DNA from: a virus
Taxonomy: Duplodnaviria > Heunggongvirae > Uroviricota > Caudoviricetes
Strand: one strand, 5' to 3'
Virus record (IMG/VR): IMGVR_UViG_2778261065_000019
DNA: 11,826 bases
Shown one piece after another: positions 1 through 11,826 of the stretch; position 1 is the stretch's first letter, and every line of letters begins with the position of its first letter. Both the position numbers and the translations under genes were made by a program. The notes under the pieces are model-generated. The model was given only the letters and a program-made list of their open reading frames with translations, was not told the origin of the DNA and made no database searches.

Positions 1-61
1 TAACAGAAAATAAACAGGCCGTAATGTGTCGCGGTCTGTTTATCAAATTAATCGCAGATAT

Positions 62-92
62 AAAAAAAACCAACCGCAATAGGTTGGTTTTT
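62..92. terminator. Bidirectional intrinsic-terminator-like hairpin
   Basis: A-run 62-69, stem CCAACC 70-75, loop gcaata, stem GGTTGG 82-87, T-run 88-92. Symmetric A/T flanks suggest it could terminate either strand. Confidence 0.45.
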
Positions 93-284
93 CTTGGGAT
101 TTTTGGTCGCACGAGAGTAGTTTAATTAAGTGTATAACTAAATGATTTTAAATAATATTCTTTATTCAACTTTTAAATCGTATAACCAAACGTATAACTA
201 AAATAATTTGCTGAAAAAGTGTACAATTTCAGCAATAATTGCCCTAGCGACTATCATCCTGCTCCCCGGTTTTTTTCCGGTTAA

Positions 285-521
285 ATGTTAATCAGGCTGC
301 TGGGCTTTGCCTGTTCGGTAGGTGTAATGATTATCGTAATACTTTTCCCCCAATGGGGTAAAAGCATCAACCGTAACGGAAGTCGTTATGGTTGCCTTGA
401 TGATCTGCGTGGTCATTATGACCATTCAGCCAATGACCTTAATCAGAGCTTTTCGCTAAAAATGACGTTGGCCACTCGTCCGGAAAGCACAAAATCCCAT
501 CGATTTTTAATTAACGGTTAA
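285..521 (+). CDS. Hypothetical small protein (78 aa) with hydrophobic N-terminus
   Basis: ORF from the six-frame track; no convincing Shine-Dalgarno upstream of the ATG. Its stop is embedded in a hairpin (ACGGTT-a-AACCGT, 514-526) followed by CTTTTTG, which looks like its own terminator. Weak overall. Confidence 0.2.
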   Translation: MLIRLLGFACSVGVMIIVILFPQWGKSINRNGSRYGCLDDLRGHYDHSANDLNQSFSLKMTLATRPESTKSHRFLING

Positions 522-532
522 ACCGTCTTTTT

Positions 533-567
533 GTCACGTCGTGTCACTGGTTGTCACTCTCCGTCAC
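533..567. repeat. Four GTCAC repeats with exact 10-bp periodicity
   Basis: GTCAC at 533-537, 543-547, 553-557 and 563-567 (tgtcacg / tgtcact / tgtcact / cgtcacg). Helical phasing suggests one-face protein binding. Confidence 0.5.
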
Positions 568-659
568 GATCTCCGATAGCCTGGCTGCAAATTAAACTAC
601 GAAAATTTCGTAGTTCTGACTTCTTTCAGATAGTCGGTTGCCTGGTTACACGAAAAAAA

Positions 660-968
660 TTACTTCCTGCGTTTATCCCGCTTTGTATGTCCGTGCTGAA
701 TGCCCCGCAGTGGATCTTCTTTTTTCAGGTCGATCCCCATGTCCGTTAGTGTTTTTGTGGCGGCGGTTCTTATGGCACAAATCAGGTCTCTTTCCGGTTC
801 CCGGGTTATGGTTGCCTTCCGGATACATGCCGTTCGTCGTTCCGTTACATACTGACGCGCTTCATCACTTGCCGCCTGTTTCAGTAACTCACCCCAGCGA
901 TTAGCCGCCCGTCGCCATAAACCTTTCGCTTCCAGTTCTTCCGCTTTGTCATCATGCACCATAAGCAT
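660..968 (-). CDS. PerC-family (Pch-like) transcriptional regulator
   Basis: Translation MLMVHDDKAEELEAKGLWRRAANRWGELLKQAASDEARQYVTERRTACIRK... carries the LE-x-KGLWRRAA-x-RW signature I associate with PerC/Pch regulators. Start is uncertain (ATG at 968 or 962; the track ORF extends to 1031 without an SD). Confidence 0.55.
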   Translation of the reverse strand: MLMVHDDKAEELEAKGLWRRAANRWGELLKQAASDEARQYVTERRTACIRKATITREPERDLICAIRTAATKTLTDMGIDLKKEDPLRGIQHGHTKRDKRRK

Positions 969-1043
969 AATCCCATTGATACCTGTTAAATCTGAATGGT
1001 TGGTTTCCGTTCTTTTGATAATTTCCCTCATAGCTTATTGTAT

Positions 1044-1055
1044 GACAGTACTGTC
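1044..1055. promoter_or_regulatory. 12-bp perfect palindrome GACAGTACTGTC in a divergent promoter region
   Basis: Lies between the divergent starts of the PerC-like gene (968, minus) and the 99-aa gene (1075, plus). Candidate operator. Confidence 0.3.
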
Positions 1056-1074
1056 CCACAATAAGGAATCACAC

Positions 1075-9766: not shown

Positions 9767-9836
9767 CACTGATCCATTTTTTTCGCAGCAGGTTAATTGT
9801 TCGCAAGGGCGCTCCGGCAACGGGGCGCTTTTTGTT
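9767..9836 (+). ncRNA. Candidate ~70-nt small RNA convergent with alpA
   Basis: Perfect extended -10 TGaTATAAT at 9751-9759, predicted start near 9767, terminator hairpin GCGCTCC (9809-9815) / GGGGCGC (9822-9828) with a G-U wobble, followed by TTTTT (9829-9833). No ORF in the interval. Purely a structural prediction. Confidence 0.3.
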
Positions 9837-9863
9837 ATGTTCATCGCGTTACGCCTCACACCA

Positions 9864-10070
9864 TTACGCAGCCGTTCCGCGCGCTTCTTCCTCGCGCTCT
9901 TTCAGCCAGGCCAGCACTTCATCTTCATACCAGCCAACACGGCGCAGACCGATTTTGAAGCCTTTCGGGAATTTTCCGGCGTTGATCATGTCCTGTAGCG
10001 AACTGTCTGCCTTGATGCGCAGAATATTTTTTACTTCCTGACGGGTAAGAATTTTTCTGATTGTTTCCAC
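9864..10070 (-). CDS. alpA: AlpA-family regulator / excisionase-like HTH protein (68 aa)
   Basis: Translation METIRKILTRQEVKNILRIKADSSLQDMINAGKFPKGFKIGLRRVGWYEDEVLAWLKERE... resembles AlpA-family proteins (G-x-RRVGW-x-E-x-E-x-WL motif). Sits next to the integrase, the usual position in P4-like and PICI elements. Confidence 0.8.
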   Translation of the reverse strand: METIRKILTRQEVKNILRIKADSSLQDMINAGKFPKGFKIGLRRVGWYEDEVLAWLKEREEEARGTAA

Positions 10071-10140
10071 TATGTTTTACCTCGTTAATCCGGCGTATTC
10101 CGGTGATAAATACGGTAAAACAGGGCAGGGCGGGAAAAAC

Positions 10141-10180
10141 AGTACCCACCGTTTTAAAACGGTACCCACTGTTTTTTATC
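10141..10180. promoter_or_regulatory. Palindrome plus direct repeats upstream of alpA
   Basis: 16-bp perfect palindrome ACCGTTTTAAAACGGT (10148-10163) embedded in two 14-bp direct repeats, GTACCCACCGTTTT (10142-10155) and GTACCCACTGTTTT (10162-10175). Confidence 0.35.
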
Positions 10181-10205
10181 TTATTGATTACGCTTTTCTT
10201 TCTGC

Positions 10206-10234
10206 AAAAAAATAGCGACCGCAAGGGGCCGCTA
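10206..10234 (-). terminator. Intrinsic terminator after the int / 80-aa ORF unit
   Basis: Minus strand: stem TAGCGGCC / GGTCGCTA (one mismatch; plus 10213-10234), loop, then seven U (plus A-run 10206-10212), just past the stop of the 80-aa ORF. Confidence 0.5.
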
Positions 10235-10240
10235 TTGTGA

Positions 10241-10483
10241 TTACCGTTTCCACTTCTTAGGTCGCCCACCGCATTTAAGGCTGGTGGGCCTCAGCACCTT
10301 GTCGATACTTTCAGCCAGATTTTTCGATGCGCCACGCGAGCGCAAAAAACTGACTACCTCGTGTTTTGTGGGGGCAGTTGATTTGTCTTCCGGATCGTAC
10401 GTTGACCAGAATTCACGATTTGCCATTAAGGCCAGTTGAAGGCCTTCACCATAGGCAGGGGATACCTTTTCATTGAAAAACAC
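10241..10483 (-). CDS. Hypothetical basic small protein (80 aa)
   Basis: ORF between int and alpA with a Lys/Arg-rich C-terminus (GGRPKKWKR) and its own downstream terminator. Start uncertain; no well-placed SD. Confidence 0.4.
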   Translation of the reverse strand: MFFNEKVSPAYGEGLQLALMANREFWSTYDPEDKSTAPTKHEVVSFLRSRGASKNLAESIDKVLRPTSLKCGGRPKKWKR

Positions 10484-10584
10484 TCGGATAACTCCTTGAA
10501 TTTCAAGAGTCGGGTCTCTCTGTATATGGTGATTATACGATGGTTTAGCATGGTTTGCATCGCTTTTACTGGTTTTTTGTACAG

Positions 10585-11826
10585 TTACACGGCACGGATA
10601 CCCCTTTTACCACTGGCTATGGTCACTCCGGTTGCTGCGGCCTCTACAAATTCCCCCCACCAGCGCATAAGCACCACGCGCTTTTCCAGGTAGTTACTTC
10701 GGTTATATGCTCGCCTTACCTCGTTCGTGTCCACGTGTGCGAGTGCGGCCTCGATTACGTCCGGCTCGAATCCTTCCTCGTTCGCTGCTGTGCTGAATAT
10801 GGCGCGTAATCCATGAGACACCAGCACGCCAGCGAATCCCATTCGCCGCAATGCTGCGTTGGCGGTCTGGCTGTTCATAGGCTGCCGTGGGTCTTTCAGG
10901 CTAGGGAAAACGTGCTCGCGGTGGTGGCTGATTGGCTTCATGGCCTCCAGTACCGCCATAGCCTGACTACAAAGCGGGATAACGTGATCACGCCGCATCT
11001 TCATGCGTCCGGCGGGGATCGTCCATTGTTGCGCGTCCATGTCGATTTCTTCCCAGCGTGCTGACGATGCTTCAACCGGACGGGTTACAGTCAGTAGCTG
11101 CCATTCAATCAGTAATCTGGTCTGCCGTTCTGTTGCTGATACGGATAAAGCCTGCATAAGCTCCGGCAACTGTTCGGGGCGGATTGTTGGCATATGTTTT
11201 TTTACAGGGGAGGGGAACGCCTTACGCACATTCATAGCCGGATTGGCATCAATCAGCCCACTGTTGGCGGCGTAATCCATTACCTCATTAACGCGCTGTA
11301 AAACCCGCTTGAGTGTTTCCAGGTTGCCGCGCTCCTTGATGGGTGTAAGCACCTCAACGAACCTTCGGGCAGTGAGGGTATCTATTGGCGTGTTGCCGAT
11401 GAACGGGAATACATATTTATCCAGCGAACGCCAGATGTCTTTAATCGTGTTGGGGGCCAGATTCTGGCTGATTTTCACCTGGTACCATGCCGCCGCCACA
11501 TTTTCGAACGTGTTCCCTTGTCTTCGGGCCTCTGCCTCTCGTTTTTTCTTCTCATGGTCCTGCGGGTCAGTTCCGGCACTGATTAACGTCCTGTACTCGC
11601 TACGGCGTTTTCTGGCATCAGCCAGGGAAACATCTTCAAGCGATCCAAAACTCAGCAATATTCTTTTTTTGTCCGATGGTCGGTAGTAGGAAAATCGCCA
11701 GAGTTTTGATCCGGACGGTTTTACCAGGAGAAAAAGCCCACCGCCGTCCTGTAGGGTGTACTCCTTTTGCGCTGGTCTGGCTGCTTTGATCTGCACTGTG
11801 GTTAATGGGGGTGTTTTTCTCGCCAT
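10585..11826 (-). CDS. int: Tyrosine recombinase, P4-type integrase (413 aa)
   Basis: N-terminus MARKTPPLTTVQIKAARPAQKEYTLQDGGGLFLLVKPSGSKLWRFSYY... is typical of P4-family integrases. C-terminal catalytic region has HGLRAIF (His-x-x-Arg) and AYNRSNYLEKR (candidate Tyr nucleophile). The ATG is at 11824-11826, so promoter and att site lie outside the window. Confidence 0.9.
   Translation of the reverse strand: MARKTPPLTTVQIKAARPAQKEYTLQDGGGLFLLVKPSGSKLWRFSYYRPSDKKRILLSFGSLEDVSLADARKRRSEYRTLISAGTDPQDHEKKKREAEARRQGNTFENVAAAWYQVKISQNLAPNTIKDIWRSLDKYVFPFIGNTPIDTLTARRFVEVLTPIKERGNLETLKRVLQRVNEVMDYAANSGLIDANPAMNVRKAFPSPVKKHMPTIRPEQLPELMQALSVSATERQTRLLIEWQLLTVTRPVEASSARWEEIDMDAQQWTIPAGRMKMRRDHVIPLCSQAMAVLEAMKPISHHREHVFPSLKDPRQPMNSQTANAALRRMGFAGVLVSHGLRAIFSTAANEEGFEPDVIEAALAHVDTNEVRRAYNRSNYLEKRVVLMRWWGEFVEAAATGVTIASGKRGIRAV

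What the first reader, a model, noticed from the sequence alone, without database searches (positions are those of the whole stretch)
1..11826. Overall architecture fits a cos-type PICI-like satellite of a lambdoid helper
The combination of P4-type int, alpA, primase-helicase with iteron origin, ssb, a partial head module, a Nu1-like gene and lambda-like cos, all co-oriented and without tail, lysis, portal or TerL genes, is not a complete prophage. It resembles reported Gram-negative PICI organisation but with a larger self-encoded capsid component and duplicated cos. Whether this combination is already described cannot be decided without searches.
Basis: partly seen in the sequence, partly recalled or inferred. 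Interest (0 to 1): 0.6.

Follow-up and report, generated by a model that had tools for sequence, protein, structure and literature searches.

The report
Known E. coli phage-satellite island (PICI)
The window is a roughly 12 kb phage-parasitic island of the well-studied EcCICFT073 family, which uses its Rpp protein to make lambda-like helper phages package it, so the architecture is real but already described.

Summary
The window carries a P4-type integrase, alpA, a D5-type primase with an iteron origin, ssb, lambda E-like and D-like head genes and a Nu1-like gene. It has two exact lambda cosN sites and no tail, lysis, portal or TerL genes.

The combination is not new. The replication and head/packaging blocks are 92-94% identical in DNA to EcCICFT073, the experimentally studied Gram-negative PICI. 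That island already has the capsid gene, the decoration gene and two cos sites.

The "Nu1-like" gene is an RppA orthologue: 95% identical to EcCICFT073 RppA, and E=6.5e-31 to the solved RppC structure. Rpp binds the helper's small terminase and redirects it to the island's cos.

Near-identical islands in complete E. coli genomes lie between yejO and tRNA-Pro/yejM. PICIs at this site are catalogued in the 2018 founding paper. The distal att core is inside the window, so this is not a prophage fragment.

Three details were not discussed in the papers I read:
- a third cos-like site of a Stx-phage type;
- a variable P1/P4-type C4 antisense-RNA module;
- a hairpin upstream of the head operon.

Verdict: ordinary and already known; low interest.

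The parts
100..117 (.). Distal att core, TTTTTGGTCGCACGAGAG. It is a damaged copy of the 3' end of tRNA-Pro. The island ends here, and bases 1-99 are chromosome downstream of yejO.
   Evidence: It matches GATTTGGTCGGCACGAGAG at the tRNA-Pro of relatives L001 and L002, with one G deleted. yejO ends immediately before the match in L001 and L002.
120..209 (.). Integrase arm-type repeats (CGTATAAC / GTATAACTAAA).
   Evidence: The same repeats lie next to the int-proximal att in L001 and L002. They correspond to the 'att site core' string listed for yejM-site PICIs in Table S1 of PMC6092414.
660..1031 (-). PerC-family regulator, an accessory gene.
   Evidence: PF06069, E=7.7e-23. It is 49% identical to the EcCICFT073 PerC-like protein. 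PerC genes are common PICI cargo (PMC11773190).
1075..1374 (+). 99-aa ORF of unknown function, divergent from perC. Probably accessory cargo.
   Evidence: Annotated as WP_001242999.1 in strain 08-00022, whose matching 1,271-bp segment is 99.8% identical in DNA. No Pfam, PHROG, NCBIfam or PADLOC match.
1498..1779 (-). 93-aa conserved PICI protein of unknown function (phrog_1561).
   Evidence: It is 85% identical to the last EcCICFT073 gene.
1814..1990 (+). cos2, a phage-type cos in inverted orientation. cosQ GGGTCCT is at 1814-1820, cosN is at 1844-1855, and cosB follows.
   Evidence: Exact cosN. Bases 1812-1990 are 92% identical to the Rz-Nu1 intergenic region of lambdoid phage PhiR12. It aligns with EcCICFT073 cos2.
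2059..2493 (-). rpp, an RppA orthologue (redirecting phage packaging protein).
   Evidence: E=6.5e-31 to RppC, PDB 6HLK/6HN7. It is 95% identical to EcCICFT073 RppA. Residues 1-58, which include the wHTH, differ from it at one position (Q18/K18), and R21-T22 are conserved.
2494..2650 (-). cos1, the island's own cos. It comprises a hairpin, cosQ at 2618-2624, cosN at 2583-2594, and the proposed R3-PICI at 2530-2547.
   Evidence: The ACCACCACC at cos positions 55-63 (2532-2540) is identical to EcCICFT073 cos1. Its position fits the proposal in PMC9026076.
2655..3068 (-). Nu3-like scaffolding protein, 137 aa.
   Evidence: phrog_1999, E=2e-62. It also matches the C-terminal part (positions 493-567 of 583) of the head-maturation-protease family phrog_53, E=2.6e-8. 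The match to the lambda Nu3 C-terminus is weak. It is 92% identical to EcCICFT073.
3082..3417 (-). Head decoration protein, lambda gpD-like.
   Evidence: PF02924, E=2.1e-18. 38% identical to gpD and 97% to EcCICFT073 c1500.
3429..4484 (-). Major capsid protein, lambda gpE-like.
   Evidence: PF03864, E=1.6e-50. 43% identical to gpE and 96% to EcCICFT073 c1499. dN/dS is 0.09-0.13.
4484..4690 (-). 68-aa first gene of the head operon (phrog_3255, function unknown).
4718..4749 (-). Conserved 14-bp hairpin with a U-tract. It lies between a TATAAT box and the head operon.
   Evidence: z = -4.4. One compensatory G-C to U-A change relative to EcCICFT073 and L001.
4903..5072 (-). cos3, a cos-like site of Stx/VT1-Sakai-phage type. 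cosQ is at 5059-5065 and the cosN-like GGGCGGGAGGCG is at 5023-5034.
   Evidence: 88-91% identical to the Rz-terS intergenic region of Stx phages. Absent from EcCICFT073, present in EcCIATCC25922.
5106..5528 (-). Single-strand DNA-binding protein.
   Evidence: PF00436, E=4.9e-15.
5525..5803 (-). 92-aa conserved protein (phrog_1231, function unknown).
5851..6078 (.). Replication origin. Ten GGTAGAYAG iterons in two oppositely oriented sets flank an AT-rich stretch.
   Evidence: The layout matches Fig. 2a of PMC6092414.
6092..7846 (-). Pri-Rep, a D5-type primase-helicase.
   Evidence: D5_N, DUF5906 and Pox_D5. 98% identical to EcCICFT073 Pri-Rep.
7843..8640 (-). Three small early genes: DUF4222 (7843-8142), orf87 (8148-8411) and orf90 (8368-8640).
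8588..9202 (-). Ash/Icd-like reading frame containing isrK (8943-9019) and the C4 antisense RNA (8834-8921).
   Evidence: Rfam isrK 80 bits and C4 75 bits. Pfam Phage_ASH. The C4 loop CUUCGUU is complementary to AACGAAG at 8971-8977 and 8791-8797.
9363..9581 (+). YlcI/YnfO-like small gene, divergent from the early operon.
   Evidence: phrog_949, E=9e-19. 65% identical to its EcCICFT073 counterpart. Annotated as such in relatives.
9864..10070 (-). AlpA-family activator/excisionase.
   Evidence: PF05930, E=4.5e-8.
10241..10483 (-). 80-aa ORF of unknown function between int and alpA, a position used for accessory genes.
   Evidence: No family match. Relatives carry a small hypothetical gene here.
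10585..11826 (-). P4-type tyrosine integrase. The tRNA-Pro attachment site lies about 220 bp beyond the window end.
   Evidence: In relatives L001 and L002, tRNA-Pro lies next to the int start, about 220 bp away. Only 25% identical to the EcCICFT073 integrase.

Best explanation
The window is an intact-looking, roughly 11.95 kb phage-inducible chromosomal island (PICI) of the Gram-negative EcCICFT073 family. It is integrated by a P4-type integrase at the 3' end of tRNA-Pro, between yejM and yejO. The life cycle below is inferred from 92-98% identity to parts that were tested experimentally in EcCICFT073.

1. Induction. A lambdoid helper phage enters lytic growth. AlpA switches on excision and the early operon.
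2. Replication. Pri-Rep, with SSB, replicates the island from the iteron origin just 3' of pri, producing concatemers.
3. Packaging. RppA binds the helper's small terminase (TerS/Nu1). The Rpp-TerS heterodimer no longer recognises the phage cosB. It recognises the island's own cosB next to cos1, and so brings the helper TerL to a cosN identical to lambda's.
4. Encapsidation. Island DNA goes into helper-made heads and tails, probably as multimers (4 x 11.95 kb = 47.8 kb, a lambda-sized filling). Phage DNA packaging is blocked at the same time.

Ancillary sites:
- cos2 is a phage-type cos in the opposite orientation.
- cos3 looks like a cos of a second helper family, the Stx/VT1-Sakai-type terminase.
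- The E-like, D-like and Nu3-like head genes are conserved under purifying selection. Their role is unknown, and in EcCICFT073 the capsid and decoration genes are dispensable for transfer and interference.

Specific to this island: the early operon probably sits under a P1/P4-type C4 antisense-RNA lock. perC and a 99-aa ORF are cargo.
For: Shown here:
- Gene content and order match EcCICFT073 gene for gene, apart from the integrase, the early small genes and the position of perC.
- Rpp identity: E=6.5e-31 to the RppC crystal structure; 95% identical to RppA, with residues 1-58 (including the DNA-binding domain) differing at one position.
- cos1 has cosQ, cosN and their spacing as in lambda, and the same cosB segment as EcCICFT073 cos1.
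- Iterons are clustered 3' of pri.
- The att core and chromosomal flanks were found.
- No other late genes are present.
- Purifying selection: dN/dS is 0.09-0.18 on the head genes and 0.09-0.10 on pri.

From the literature:
- int, alpA, pri-rep and both cos sites of EcCICFT073 were tested by deletion, and lambda and phi80 act as helpers (PMC6092414).
- The Rpp-TerS mechanism and cos1 specificity are established (PMC6739421; PMC9026076).
- PICIs at the yejM site are catalogued.
- The SatelliteFinder PICI definition is int, regulator, primase, capsid gene and terS-like gene, with tail, holin and portal forbidden (PMC10085698).
Against: - No experiment exists for this particular island. Induction, transfer and interference are inferred by homology.
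- Its integrase, AlpA and early region differ from the prototype: int is 25% identical, and the C4 module is absent from EcCICFT073. Regulation may therefore differ.
- The distal att copy is damaged by a 1-nt deletion.
- The int-proximal att lies outside the window and was seen only in relatives.
- The closest relative, H1, carries a frameshifted capsid gene and a truncated rpp, so members of this lineage do decay.
Confidence: 0.88

Rival explanations
1. It is a decayed remnant of a lambdoid prophage that happens to retain cos, Nu1, D and E. It is not an autonomous satellite.
For: It has lambda-type cos sites and lambda-family E and D genes. cos2 and cos3 are 88-92% identical to real phage cos regions.
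Against: - E and D are only 38-46% identical to the lambda and resident-prophage versions, but 96-97% identical to those of another PICI.
- Gene order (E, D, Nu3-like, cos, rpp) is not the lambda order.
- Integration (P4-type int with AlpA) and replication (D5-type primase with iterons) are not lambdoid.
- The same compact unit recurs at several att sites, bounded by att repeats and chromosomal genes.
- The head genes are under purifying selection.
Confidence: 0.03
2. It is a P4-like satellite that depends on a P2-type helper.
For: It has a P4-type integrase, AlpA, a D5/alpha-like primase-helicase, a size of about 12 kb, and a P4 CI-like (C4/isrK) RNA module.
Against: - No Sid, Psu, Delta or Epsilon homologue was found in Pfam or PHROG scans of the ORFs.
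- The cos sites are lambda-type 12-mers, whereas I expect a P2/P4-type cos from memory.
- It carries Rpp and lambda-family E and D instead.
Confidence: 0.02
3. It is a capsid-forming PICI (cf-PICI) that builds its own heads and steals only tails.
For: It encodes a major capsid protein, a decoration protein and a scaffold-like protein, all under purifying selection.
Against: - There is no TerL, portal, prohead protease, head-tail adaptor or connector, and these define cf-PICIs (PMC10085698).
- EcCICFT073 DNA is packaged in phage-sized heads, and its capsid and decoration genes are dispensable for transfer (PMC6092414).
Confidence: 0.03
4. It belongs to the PICI family but is now immobile. It is a domesticated island kept for cargo (perC) or for Rpp-mediated phage interference.
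For: The distal att copy is damaged. Close relatives carry a frameshifted capsid gene and a truncated rpp. The C4 immunity module could keep it silent.
Against: - All core ORFs are full length here: int 413 aa, pri 584 aa, rpp 144 aa, capsid 351 aa.
- The cos sites are exact.
- Damage to the tRNA-derived att copy is reported as typical of PICIs (PMC10111431).
Confidence: 0.1

Closest known systems
EcCICFT073, the prototype Gram-negative cos PICI of E. coli CFT073 (Fillol-Salom 2018, 2019)
   Same: - Same order: alpA, small early genes, DUF4222, pri-rep, iteron ori, orf92, ssb, orf68, capsid E, decoration D, 137-aa protein, cos1, rppA, inverted cos2, orf93.
- 92-94% DNA identity over about 6.4 kb.
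- Protein identities: Pri 98%, E 96%, D 97%, RppA 95%.
- Identical cosN and the same cos1 cosB core.
   Different: - Different integrase (25% aa) and att site (tRNA-Pro at yejM rather than ycfD-phoQ).
- Different AlpA and early small genes.
- The window has the isrK/C4 RNA module, and EcCICFT073 has none.
- The window has cos3 where EcCICFT073 has perC.
- perC and a 99-aa ORF sit at the far end of the window's island.
EcCIATCC25922, EcCIED1a.1 and SbCISb227, catalogued PICIs at the yejM site (Table S1 of PMC6092414)
   Same: - Same att site and arm repeats.
- The integrase region is 84% identical in DNA.
- 95.5% DNA identity over window 8173-2553, which includes cos3, ssb, pri and the head genes.
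   Different: - Between the inverted cos pair, EcCIATCC25922 carries a full-length Nu1-type terS (35% identical to lambda Nu1). The window carries rppA there.
- It lacks the C4 module.
- It lacks the perC/ORF99 cassette.
- EcCIED1a.1 and SbCISb227 could not be fetched and were not compared.
cos-type SaPIs such as SaPIbov5 (Gram-positive PICIs)
   Same: They are satellites that carry helper-type cos sites and a capsid-protein homologue. SaPIbov4 also has two putative cos sites (PMC6092414).
   Different: They are an unrelated lineage with Stl-repressor control. The capsid homologue Ccm is shown to redirect capsid size. They have no Rpp.
Satellite phage P4
   Same: P4-type integrase, AlpA-family regulator, D5-like primase-helicase, RNA-based immunity of the CI/C4 type, and a size of about 11-12 kb.
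   Different: P4 uses a P2 helper and, from my memory, a P2-type cos and the Sid/Psu/Delta capsid-size system. None of these is present here.

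Membership tests
Gram-negative PICI (Fillol-Salom 2018; SatelliteFinder PICI model) | Integrase at one end, with a specific att site not used by prophages. | tested here: met
   P4-type int. The att core matches the tRNA-Pro 3' end. In four complete genomes the island at this site has chromosomal flanks. The site is listed as PICI-specific in Table S1. I did not test whether prophages ever use it.
Gram-negative PICI (Fillol-Salom 2018; SatelliteFinder PICI model) | An AlpA-type regulator next to int, with essentially unidirectional transcription. 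| tested here: met
   AlpA, PF05930. All core genes are on the - strand. Two small + strand ORFs are the exceptions.
Gram-negative PICI (Fillol-Salom 2018; SatelliteFinder PICI model) | A primase-replicase with an iteron origin immediately 3' of it. | tested here: met
   The protein is 98% identical to the functionally tested EcCICFT073 Pri-Rep.
Gram-negative PICI (Fillol-Salom 2018; SatelliteFinder PICI model) | A capsid-morphogenesis gene and a terS-like packaging gene, which are the Type A core components. | tested here: met
   E-like capsid gene. Rpp matches the terS family phrog_57 at its N-terminus, and matches RppC. SatelliteFinder itself was not run.
Gram-negative PICI (Fillol-Salom 2018; SatelliteFinder PICI model) | No tail, holin/lysis, portal, head-tail connector or TerL genes; size about 8-15 kb. 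| tested here: met
   The element is about 11.95 kb.
Gram-negative PICI (Fillol-Salom 2018; SatelliteFinder PICI model) | Helper-phage-induced excision, replication, packaging and high-frequency transfer. | not testable with these tools
   This has been shown only for the homologue EcCICFT073 (PMC6092414).
Rpp-type cos PICI (Fillol-Salom 2019) | An Rpp protein with an N-terminal TerS-like wHTH and a C-terminal dimerisation region, and without the TerL-binding tail of TerS. | tested here: met
   E=6.5e-31 to RppC over residues 2-125. It is 144 aa against 181 aa for Nu1, and only the N-terminal ~50 residues resemble Nu1. R21-T22 are conserved.
Rpp-type cos PICI (Fillol-Salom 2019) | A cos directly upstream of rpp, with lambda-like cosQ and cosN but a non-phage cosB. 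| tested here: met
   The cosB core ACCACCACC at positions 55-63 is shared with EcCICFT073 cos1.
Rpp-type cos PICI (Fillol-Salom 2019) | Rpp binds helper TerS, blocks phage packaging and is required for island packaging. | not testable with these tools
   Inferred from 95% identity to RppA.
cf-PICI (capsid-forming PICI) | Own TerL, portal, protease, and head-tail adaptor/connector in addition to a capsid gene. | tested here: not met
   None was found by Pfam or by tblastn with lambdoid late proteins, and no ORF is long enough.
P4-like satellite | The psu-delta-sid operon and epsilon, together with alpha, alpA and int. | tested here: not met
   Only int, alpA and an alpha-like primase are present. 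No Sid, Psu, Delta or Epsilon match was found.
Helper-embedded PICI (HE-PICI) | [quoted passage not shown] | tested here: not met
   The att is the tRNA-Pro 3' end, with chromosomal genes on both sides in relatives.

The most novel reading that the evidence does not exclude
The conserved E-like, D-like and Nu3-like head operon is not vestigial. It sits behind its own hairpin-gated leader. With the right natural helper, possibly the Stx/VT1-Sakai-type phages whose cos the island also carries as cos3, it would build satellite-specific and perhaps smaller shells around the helper's portal and protease. These islands would then be an intermediate between classical PICIs and capsid-forming PICIs. 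My own volume scaling from lambda gives about 13.6 kb for a T=3 shell and about 21 kb for a T=4 shell, against an 11.95 kb genome. Purifying selection and the recurrence of cos3 in PICIs do not exclude this reading. It is disfavoured because with lambda the EcCICFT073 DNA is packaged phage-sized, and deleting c1499 or c1500 changes neither transfer nor interference (PMC6092414).
Probability: 0.12. Interest if true: 0.55.

Novelty: already known. Interest (0 to 1): 0.15.

Why it matters
PICIs of this family move virulence regulators and defence genes between enterobacteria and blunt lambdoid phage infection, so recognising one correctly avoids mis-annotating it as a cryptic prophage. For this window the value is mainly annotation: the "terminase small subunit-like" gene is RppA, and the island's boundaries, origin and cos sites can be marked. 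Three leads remain untested: a Stx-phage-type cos that recurs in many PICIs, a variable antisense-RNA lock on the replication operon, and the still-unexplained, selectively maintained head genes. Each could be tested in the existing EcCICFT073 genetic system.

Tried and rejected
- PADLOC and NCBIfam scans of ten small or unknown proteins found no defence system and no informative family.
- The sigma-70 promoter scan gave chance-level counts (13 found, 14.4 expected), so I make no promoter claims from it. Terminator-like sites were only mildly enriched.
- A distant BLAST of the head-operon leader (4660-4905) against 50,697 phage records found nothing. I therefore dropped the idea that it copies a phage late promoter/terminator.
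- An Rfam scan of EcCICFT073 found no isrK or C4, so that module is not a family constant.
- I looked for EcCICFT073 at two wrong CFT073 intervals before finding it at 1377930-1388900.
- E. coli ED1a (NC_011745.1) is not in the collection, so EcCIED1a.1 could not be compared.
- The 423-aa ORF at 8588-9859 is rejected as a gene. It is a long open frame spanning Icd/Ash-like pieces and two RNA genes.
- The Tai tail-interference system was read about and is not evidenced here.
- A literature search for a third PICI cos site found nothing relevant.
- I did not use the large protein-homology searches or structure prediction, because the classification was already decisive.

Full report
**What is in the window**

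ORF listing and Pfam scans show a compact, almost unidirectional set of genes on the - strand:
- a P4-type integrase (10585-11826; Arm-DNA-bind_3, Phage_int_M, Phage_integrase);
- an 80-aa ORF (10241-10483);
- AlpA (9864-10070);
- an early block of small genes, including DUF4222 (7843-8142);
- a D5-type primase-helicase (6092-7846);
- a 92-aa gene (5525-5803) and SSB (5106-5528);
- a 68-aa gene (4484-4690);
- a lambda E-family major capsid protein (3429-4484) and a lambda D-family decoration protein (3082-3417);
- a 137-aa protein (2655-3068);
- a 144-aa helix-turn-helix protein (2059-2493);
- a 93-aa protein (1498-1779) and a PerC-family regulator (660-1031).

Two small ORFs lie on the + strand: a YlcI/YnfO-like gene (9363-9581) and a 99-aa ORF (1075-1374).

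I took 23 late proteins of a lambdoid prophage (holin, lysozyme, Rz, TerS, TerL, W, portal, protease, D, E, FI, FII and eleven tail proteins). Only D and E find a match in the six-frame translation of the window. No remaining ORF is long enough for a TerL or a portal. No tRNA gene lies in the window.

**Repeats and sites**

The exact lambda cohesive-end sequence GGGCGGCGACCT occurs twice, at 2583-2594 on the - strand and at 1844-1855 on the + strand. The two copies are the cores of a 75-nt inverted repeat that flanks the 144-aa gene.

Alignment with the lambda cos junction shows that both copies keep the GGGTCCT heptamer at lambda's spacing of 23 nt. I recall this heptamer as cosQ from memory.
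- The - strand copy (cos1) lies 89 nt upstream of the 144-aa gene (cosN ends at 2583, the ATG is at 2493). This mirrors the cos-then-Nu1 layout of lambda. Its downstream sequence does not resemble lambda cosB.
- The + strand copy (cos2) is followed by about 135 nt that are 92% identical to the Rz-Nu1 intergenic region of lambdoid phage PhiR12. cos2 is therefore a phage-type cos in the opposite orientation.

Ten copies of GGTAGAYAG (at most one mismatch) cluster in 5851-6078, immediately 3' of the primase gene. They form two oppositely oriented sets around an AT-rich stretch. The whole window has 18 matches against 2.2 expected, and 0 of 200 shuffles reach that number.

**Identity of the island**

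A megablast of the window against 5,426 complete E. coli genomes finds partial matches in 2,112 of them and near-full-length matches in two.
- In every relative inspected, the island sits between yejO on one side and tRNA-Pro/yejM on the other.
- The window contains the distal att core at 100-117, TTTTTGGTCGCACGAGAG. This is a copy of the tRNA-Pro 3' end with one G deleted. Integrase arm-type repeats lie nearby.
- The element is therefore about 11.95 kb and is bounded. It is not a piece of a larger prophage.

I located the experimentally studied PICI EcCICFT073 in the CFT073 chromosome and compared it with the window.
- DNA identity is 92.3% over window 8173-5200 (DUF4222 to ssb) and 93.6% over 4892-1490 (the 68-aa gene to the 93-aa gene).
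- Protein identities are Pri 98%, capsid 96%, decoration 97%, the 137-aa protein 92% and the 144-aa protein 95%. The integrase is only 25% identical.

The 144-aa protein matches the crystal structure of RppC (6HLK/6HN7) at E=6.5e-31. It differs from EcCICFT073 RppA at one position in residues 1-58, which include the DNA-binding domain, and it keeps R21-T22. Only its N-terminal ~50 residues resemble lambda Nu1.

**What the literature already says**

Fillol-Salom et al. 2018 (PMC6092414):
- They describe EcCICFT073 with a putative capsid protein (c1499), a decoration protein (c1500), two functional cos sites and a pri-rep/iteron origin.
- Transfer depends on int and alpA.
- Lambda and phi80 act as helpers, and DNA is packaged at phage size.
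- Deleting c1499 or c1500 had no effect on transfer or on interference.
- Their Table S1 lists PICIs at the yejM site (EcCIATCC25922, EcCIED1a.1, EcCI11128, EcCI11368.1, SdCI1012, SbCISb227), with the same arm repeat I found.

Fillol-Salom et al. 2019 (PMC6739421) show three things:
- Rpp binds helper TerS.
- Rpp blocks phage cosB recognition.
- Rpp redirects terminase to the cosB of cos1.

Murialdo and Feiss 2022 (PMC9026076) place the likely Rpp site at cos positions 48-65, with positions 55-63 invariant. The window has ACCACCACC there (2532-2540), identical to EcCICFT073.

Two further papers bear on membership:
- The SatelliteFinder paper (PMC10085698) defines PICI core components as integrase, regulator, primase-replicase, capsid-morphogenesis gene and small terminase. 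Tail, holin and portal/connector genes are forbidden. It notes that 97% of full "Type A" PICIs are in E. coli.
- The HE-PICI paper (PMC10111431) notes that 21 of 29 reference Gram-negative PICIs carry a capsid gene. It also reports that C4 and isrK Rfam models hit several PICIs, and that damage to the tRNA-derived att copy may be restricted to PICIs.

**Mechanism (inferred by homology unless stated)**

- Integration at tRNA-Pro follows directly from the sequence.
- By homology, the steps are: AlpA-dependent excision and early expression; replication by Pri-Rep at the iteron origin with SSB; Rpp-TerS recognition of cos1; cutting by helper TerL at the lambda-identical cosN; packaging into helper particles, with simultaneous interference against the helper.
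- Four genome copies make 47.8 kb, close to lambda's 48.5 kb (my arithmetic). This fits the published observation that phage-sized DNA is packaged.

**Mosaicism**

- The catalogued EcCIATCC25922 shares 95.5% identity with window 8173-2553. Between the inverted cos pair it carries a full-length Nu1-type terS (35% identical to lambda Nu1) where the window has rppA.
- Strain 08-00022 has an island at the same site with the same int, perC and ORF99 ends, but a protease-capsid fusion head module.
- The window is one recombinant among many.

**Details beyond the finding**

(a) A third cos-like site (cos3).
- Bases 4903-5072 (- strand), between ssb and the head operon, are 88-91% identical to the Rz-terS intergenic region of VT1-Sakai and Stx2 phages.
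- The segment keeps GGGTCCT, a cosN-like GGGCGGGAGGCG (5023-5034) and about 120 nt of downstream sequence.
- The TerS of those phages has no detectable similarity to lambda Nu1.
- cos3 is preceded by the same hairpin that precedes cos1 (31 nt, 94% identical).
- It is absent from EcCICFT073 and present in EcCIATCC25922.
- The ssb-cos3-orf68 junction is present in 161 of 5,426 E. coli genomes.
- In IMG/VR, the window's cosN variant (A at 5027) occurs in 16 contigs, all in PICI context. The variant with C occurs in 58 contigs: 45 in phage context, 7 in PICI context, 4 mixed and 2 with no marker.
- That cos3 is a working site for a second helper family is my inference.

(b) An antisense-RNA module in the early region.
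- The region contains isrK (8943-9019, 80 bits) and a C4 antisense RNA (8834-8921, 75 bits), embedded in an Ash/Icd-like open frame.
- The 12-nt C4 loop contains CUUCGUU. This is complementary to the only two - strand AACGAAG sites in the window: one in the upstream a1b1/isrK region (8971-8977), and one over the ribosome-binding site of the second Icd-like ORF (8791-8797).
- This is the P1 c4/icd or P4 CI logic. It would hold the downstream replication genes off.
- The module is absent from EcCICFT073, EcCIATCC25922 and most other relatives scanned, and present in one IMG/VR relative.

(c) A hairpin ahead of the head operon.
- A 14-bp hairpin with a U-tract (4718-4749; z = -4.4) lies between a perfect TATAAT and the head operon.
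- It shows one compensatory G-C to U-A change relative to EcCICFT073.
- It could be an attenuator or an operator. I found no phage counterpart.

(d) The head genes are under purifying selection as strong as that on the primase.
- dN/dS is 0.09-0.13 for E, 0.09-0.13 for D and 0.15-0.18 for the 137-aa protein, against 0.09-0.10 for pri.
- The 137-aa protein matches the C-terminal, scaffold part of the lambda C/Nu3 family (phrog_53, E=2.6e-8; weak BLASTP to Nu3).
- The function of these genes remains unexplained.

**Verdict**

- The thing is an already described kind with an experimentally established mechanism in a 92-98% identical relative.
- Interest is low. The side observations are modest leads, not discoveries.

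Noticed in passing
window 4903-5072 (- strand); also L012 around 8031 and L001 around 12936: A third cos-like site (cos3) of Stx/VT1-Sakai-phage type lies between ssb and the head operon. It has GGGTCCT, a cosN-like GGGCGGGAGGCG and about 120 nt of phage cosB-like sequence. The single-base cosN variant (A at 5027) was seen only in PICI-context contigs (16 of 16). The variant with C occurred in 58 contigs: 45 in phage context, 7 in PICI context, 4 mixed and 2 with no marker. The ssb-cos3-orf68 junction is present in 161 of 5,426 E. coli genomes, and cos3 is absent from EcCICFT073.
   Followed up: partly
window 8588-9202 (- strand): A P1 c4/icd or P4 CI-like antisense-RNA module: isrK (8943-9019) and C4 (8834-8921) sit inside an Ash/Icd-like open frame. 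The C4 loop CUUCGUU is complementary to AACGAAG at 8971-8977 and at the RBS of the second Icd-like ORF (8791-8797). It is absent from EcCICFT073, EcCIATCC25922, L001, L002 and L013, and present in IMG/VR relative L028.
   Followed up: partly
window 4718-4760 (- strand): A 14-bp hairpin with a U-tract follows a perfect TATAAT and lies just before the first head-operon gene. It is conserved in five PICIs, with one compensatory G-C to U-A change. It may be an attenuator/antitermination target or a palindromic operator. No phage counterpart was found.
   Followed up: partly
window 1813-2625; L012 10470-11411: The 75-nt inverted cos repeat brackets a swappable cassette. It holds rppA in the window and in EcCICFT073, but a full-length Nu1-type terS in EcCIATCC25922 and L002.
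   Followed up: partly
window 2618-2648 and 5059-5089: The same 31-nt hairpin-plus-cosQ junction (94% identical) precedes both cos1 and cos3, but it precedes neither the lambda cos nor the Stx-phage cos. This suggests that cos modules were exchanged at this junction inside PICIs.
   Followed up: no
window 660-1374: A divergent accessory cassette: a PerC-family regulator and a 99-aa + strand ORF with no family match. Both are also annotated in strain 08-00022, where the matching DNA is 99.8% identical. The 99-aa ORF sits at the 3'-end position where PICIs often carry defence or virulence cargo.
   Followed up: partly
L013 14309-16198 (E. coli 08-00022): An island at the same att site, with the same int, alpA, perC and ORF99, carries a ClpP-like protease/major-capsid fusion gene instead of the E/D/Nu3-like/rpp module. 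Head modules are therefore exchanged between PICIs at one site.
   Followed up: no
L063, L084, L031, L072 (IMG/VR contigs): These contigs combine a PICI primase or ssb with VT1-type TerS, TerL or Rz genes next to the phage-variant cos. They may be helper-embedded or elongated PICIs.
   Followed up: no
window 100-117: The distal att copy of the tRNA-Pro 3' end lacks one G relative to the intact tRNA. This fits the att-fragment damage reported for PICIs in PMC10111431.
   Followed up: partly
L001 10092-10301 and 11314-12367: The closest complete-genome relative (97.7% identical) has an N-terminally truncated rpp and a frameshifted capsid gene. Some copies of this lineage are therefore decaying.
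   Followed up: no
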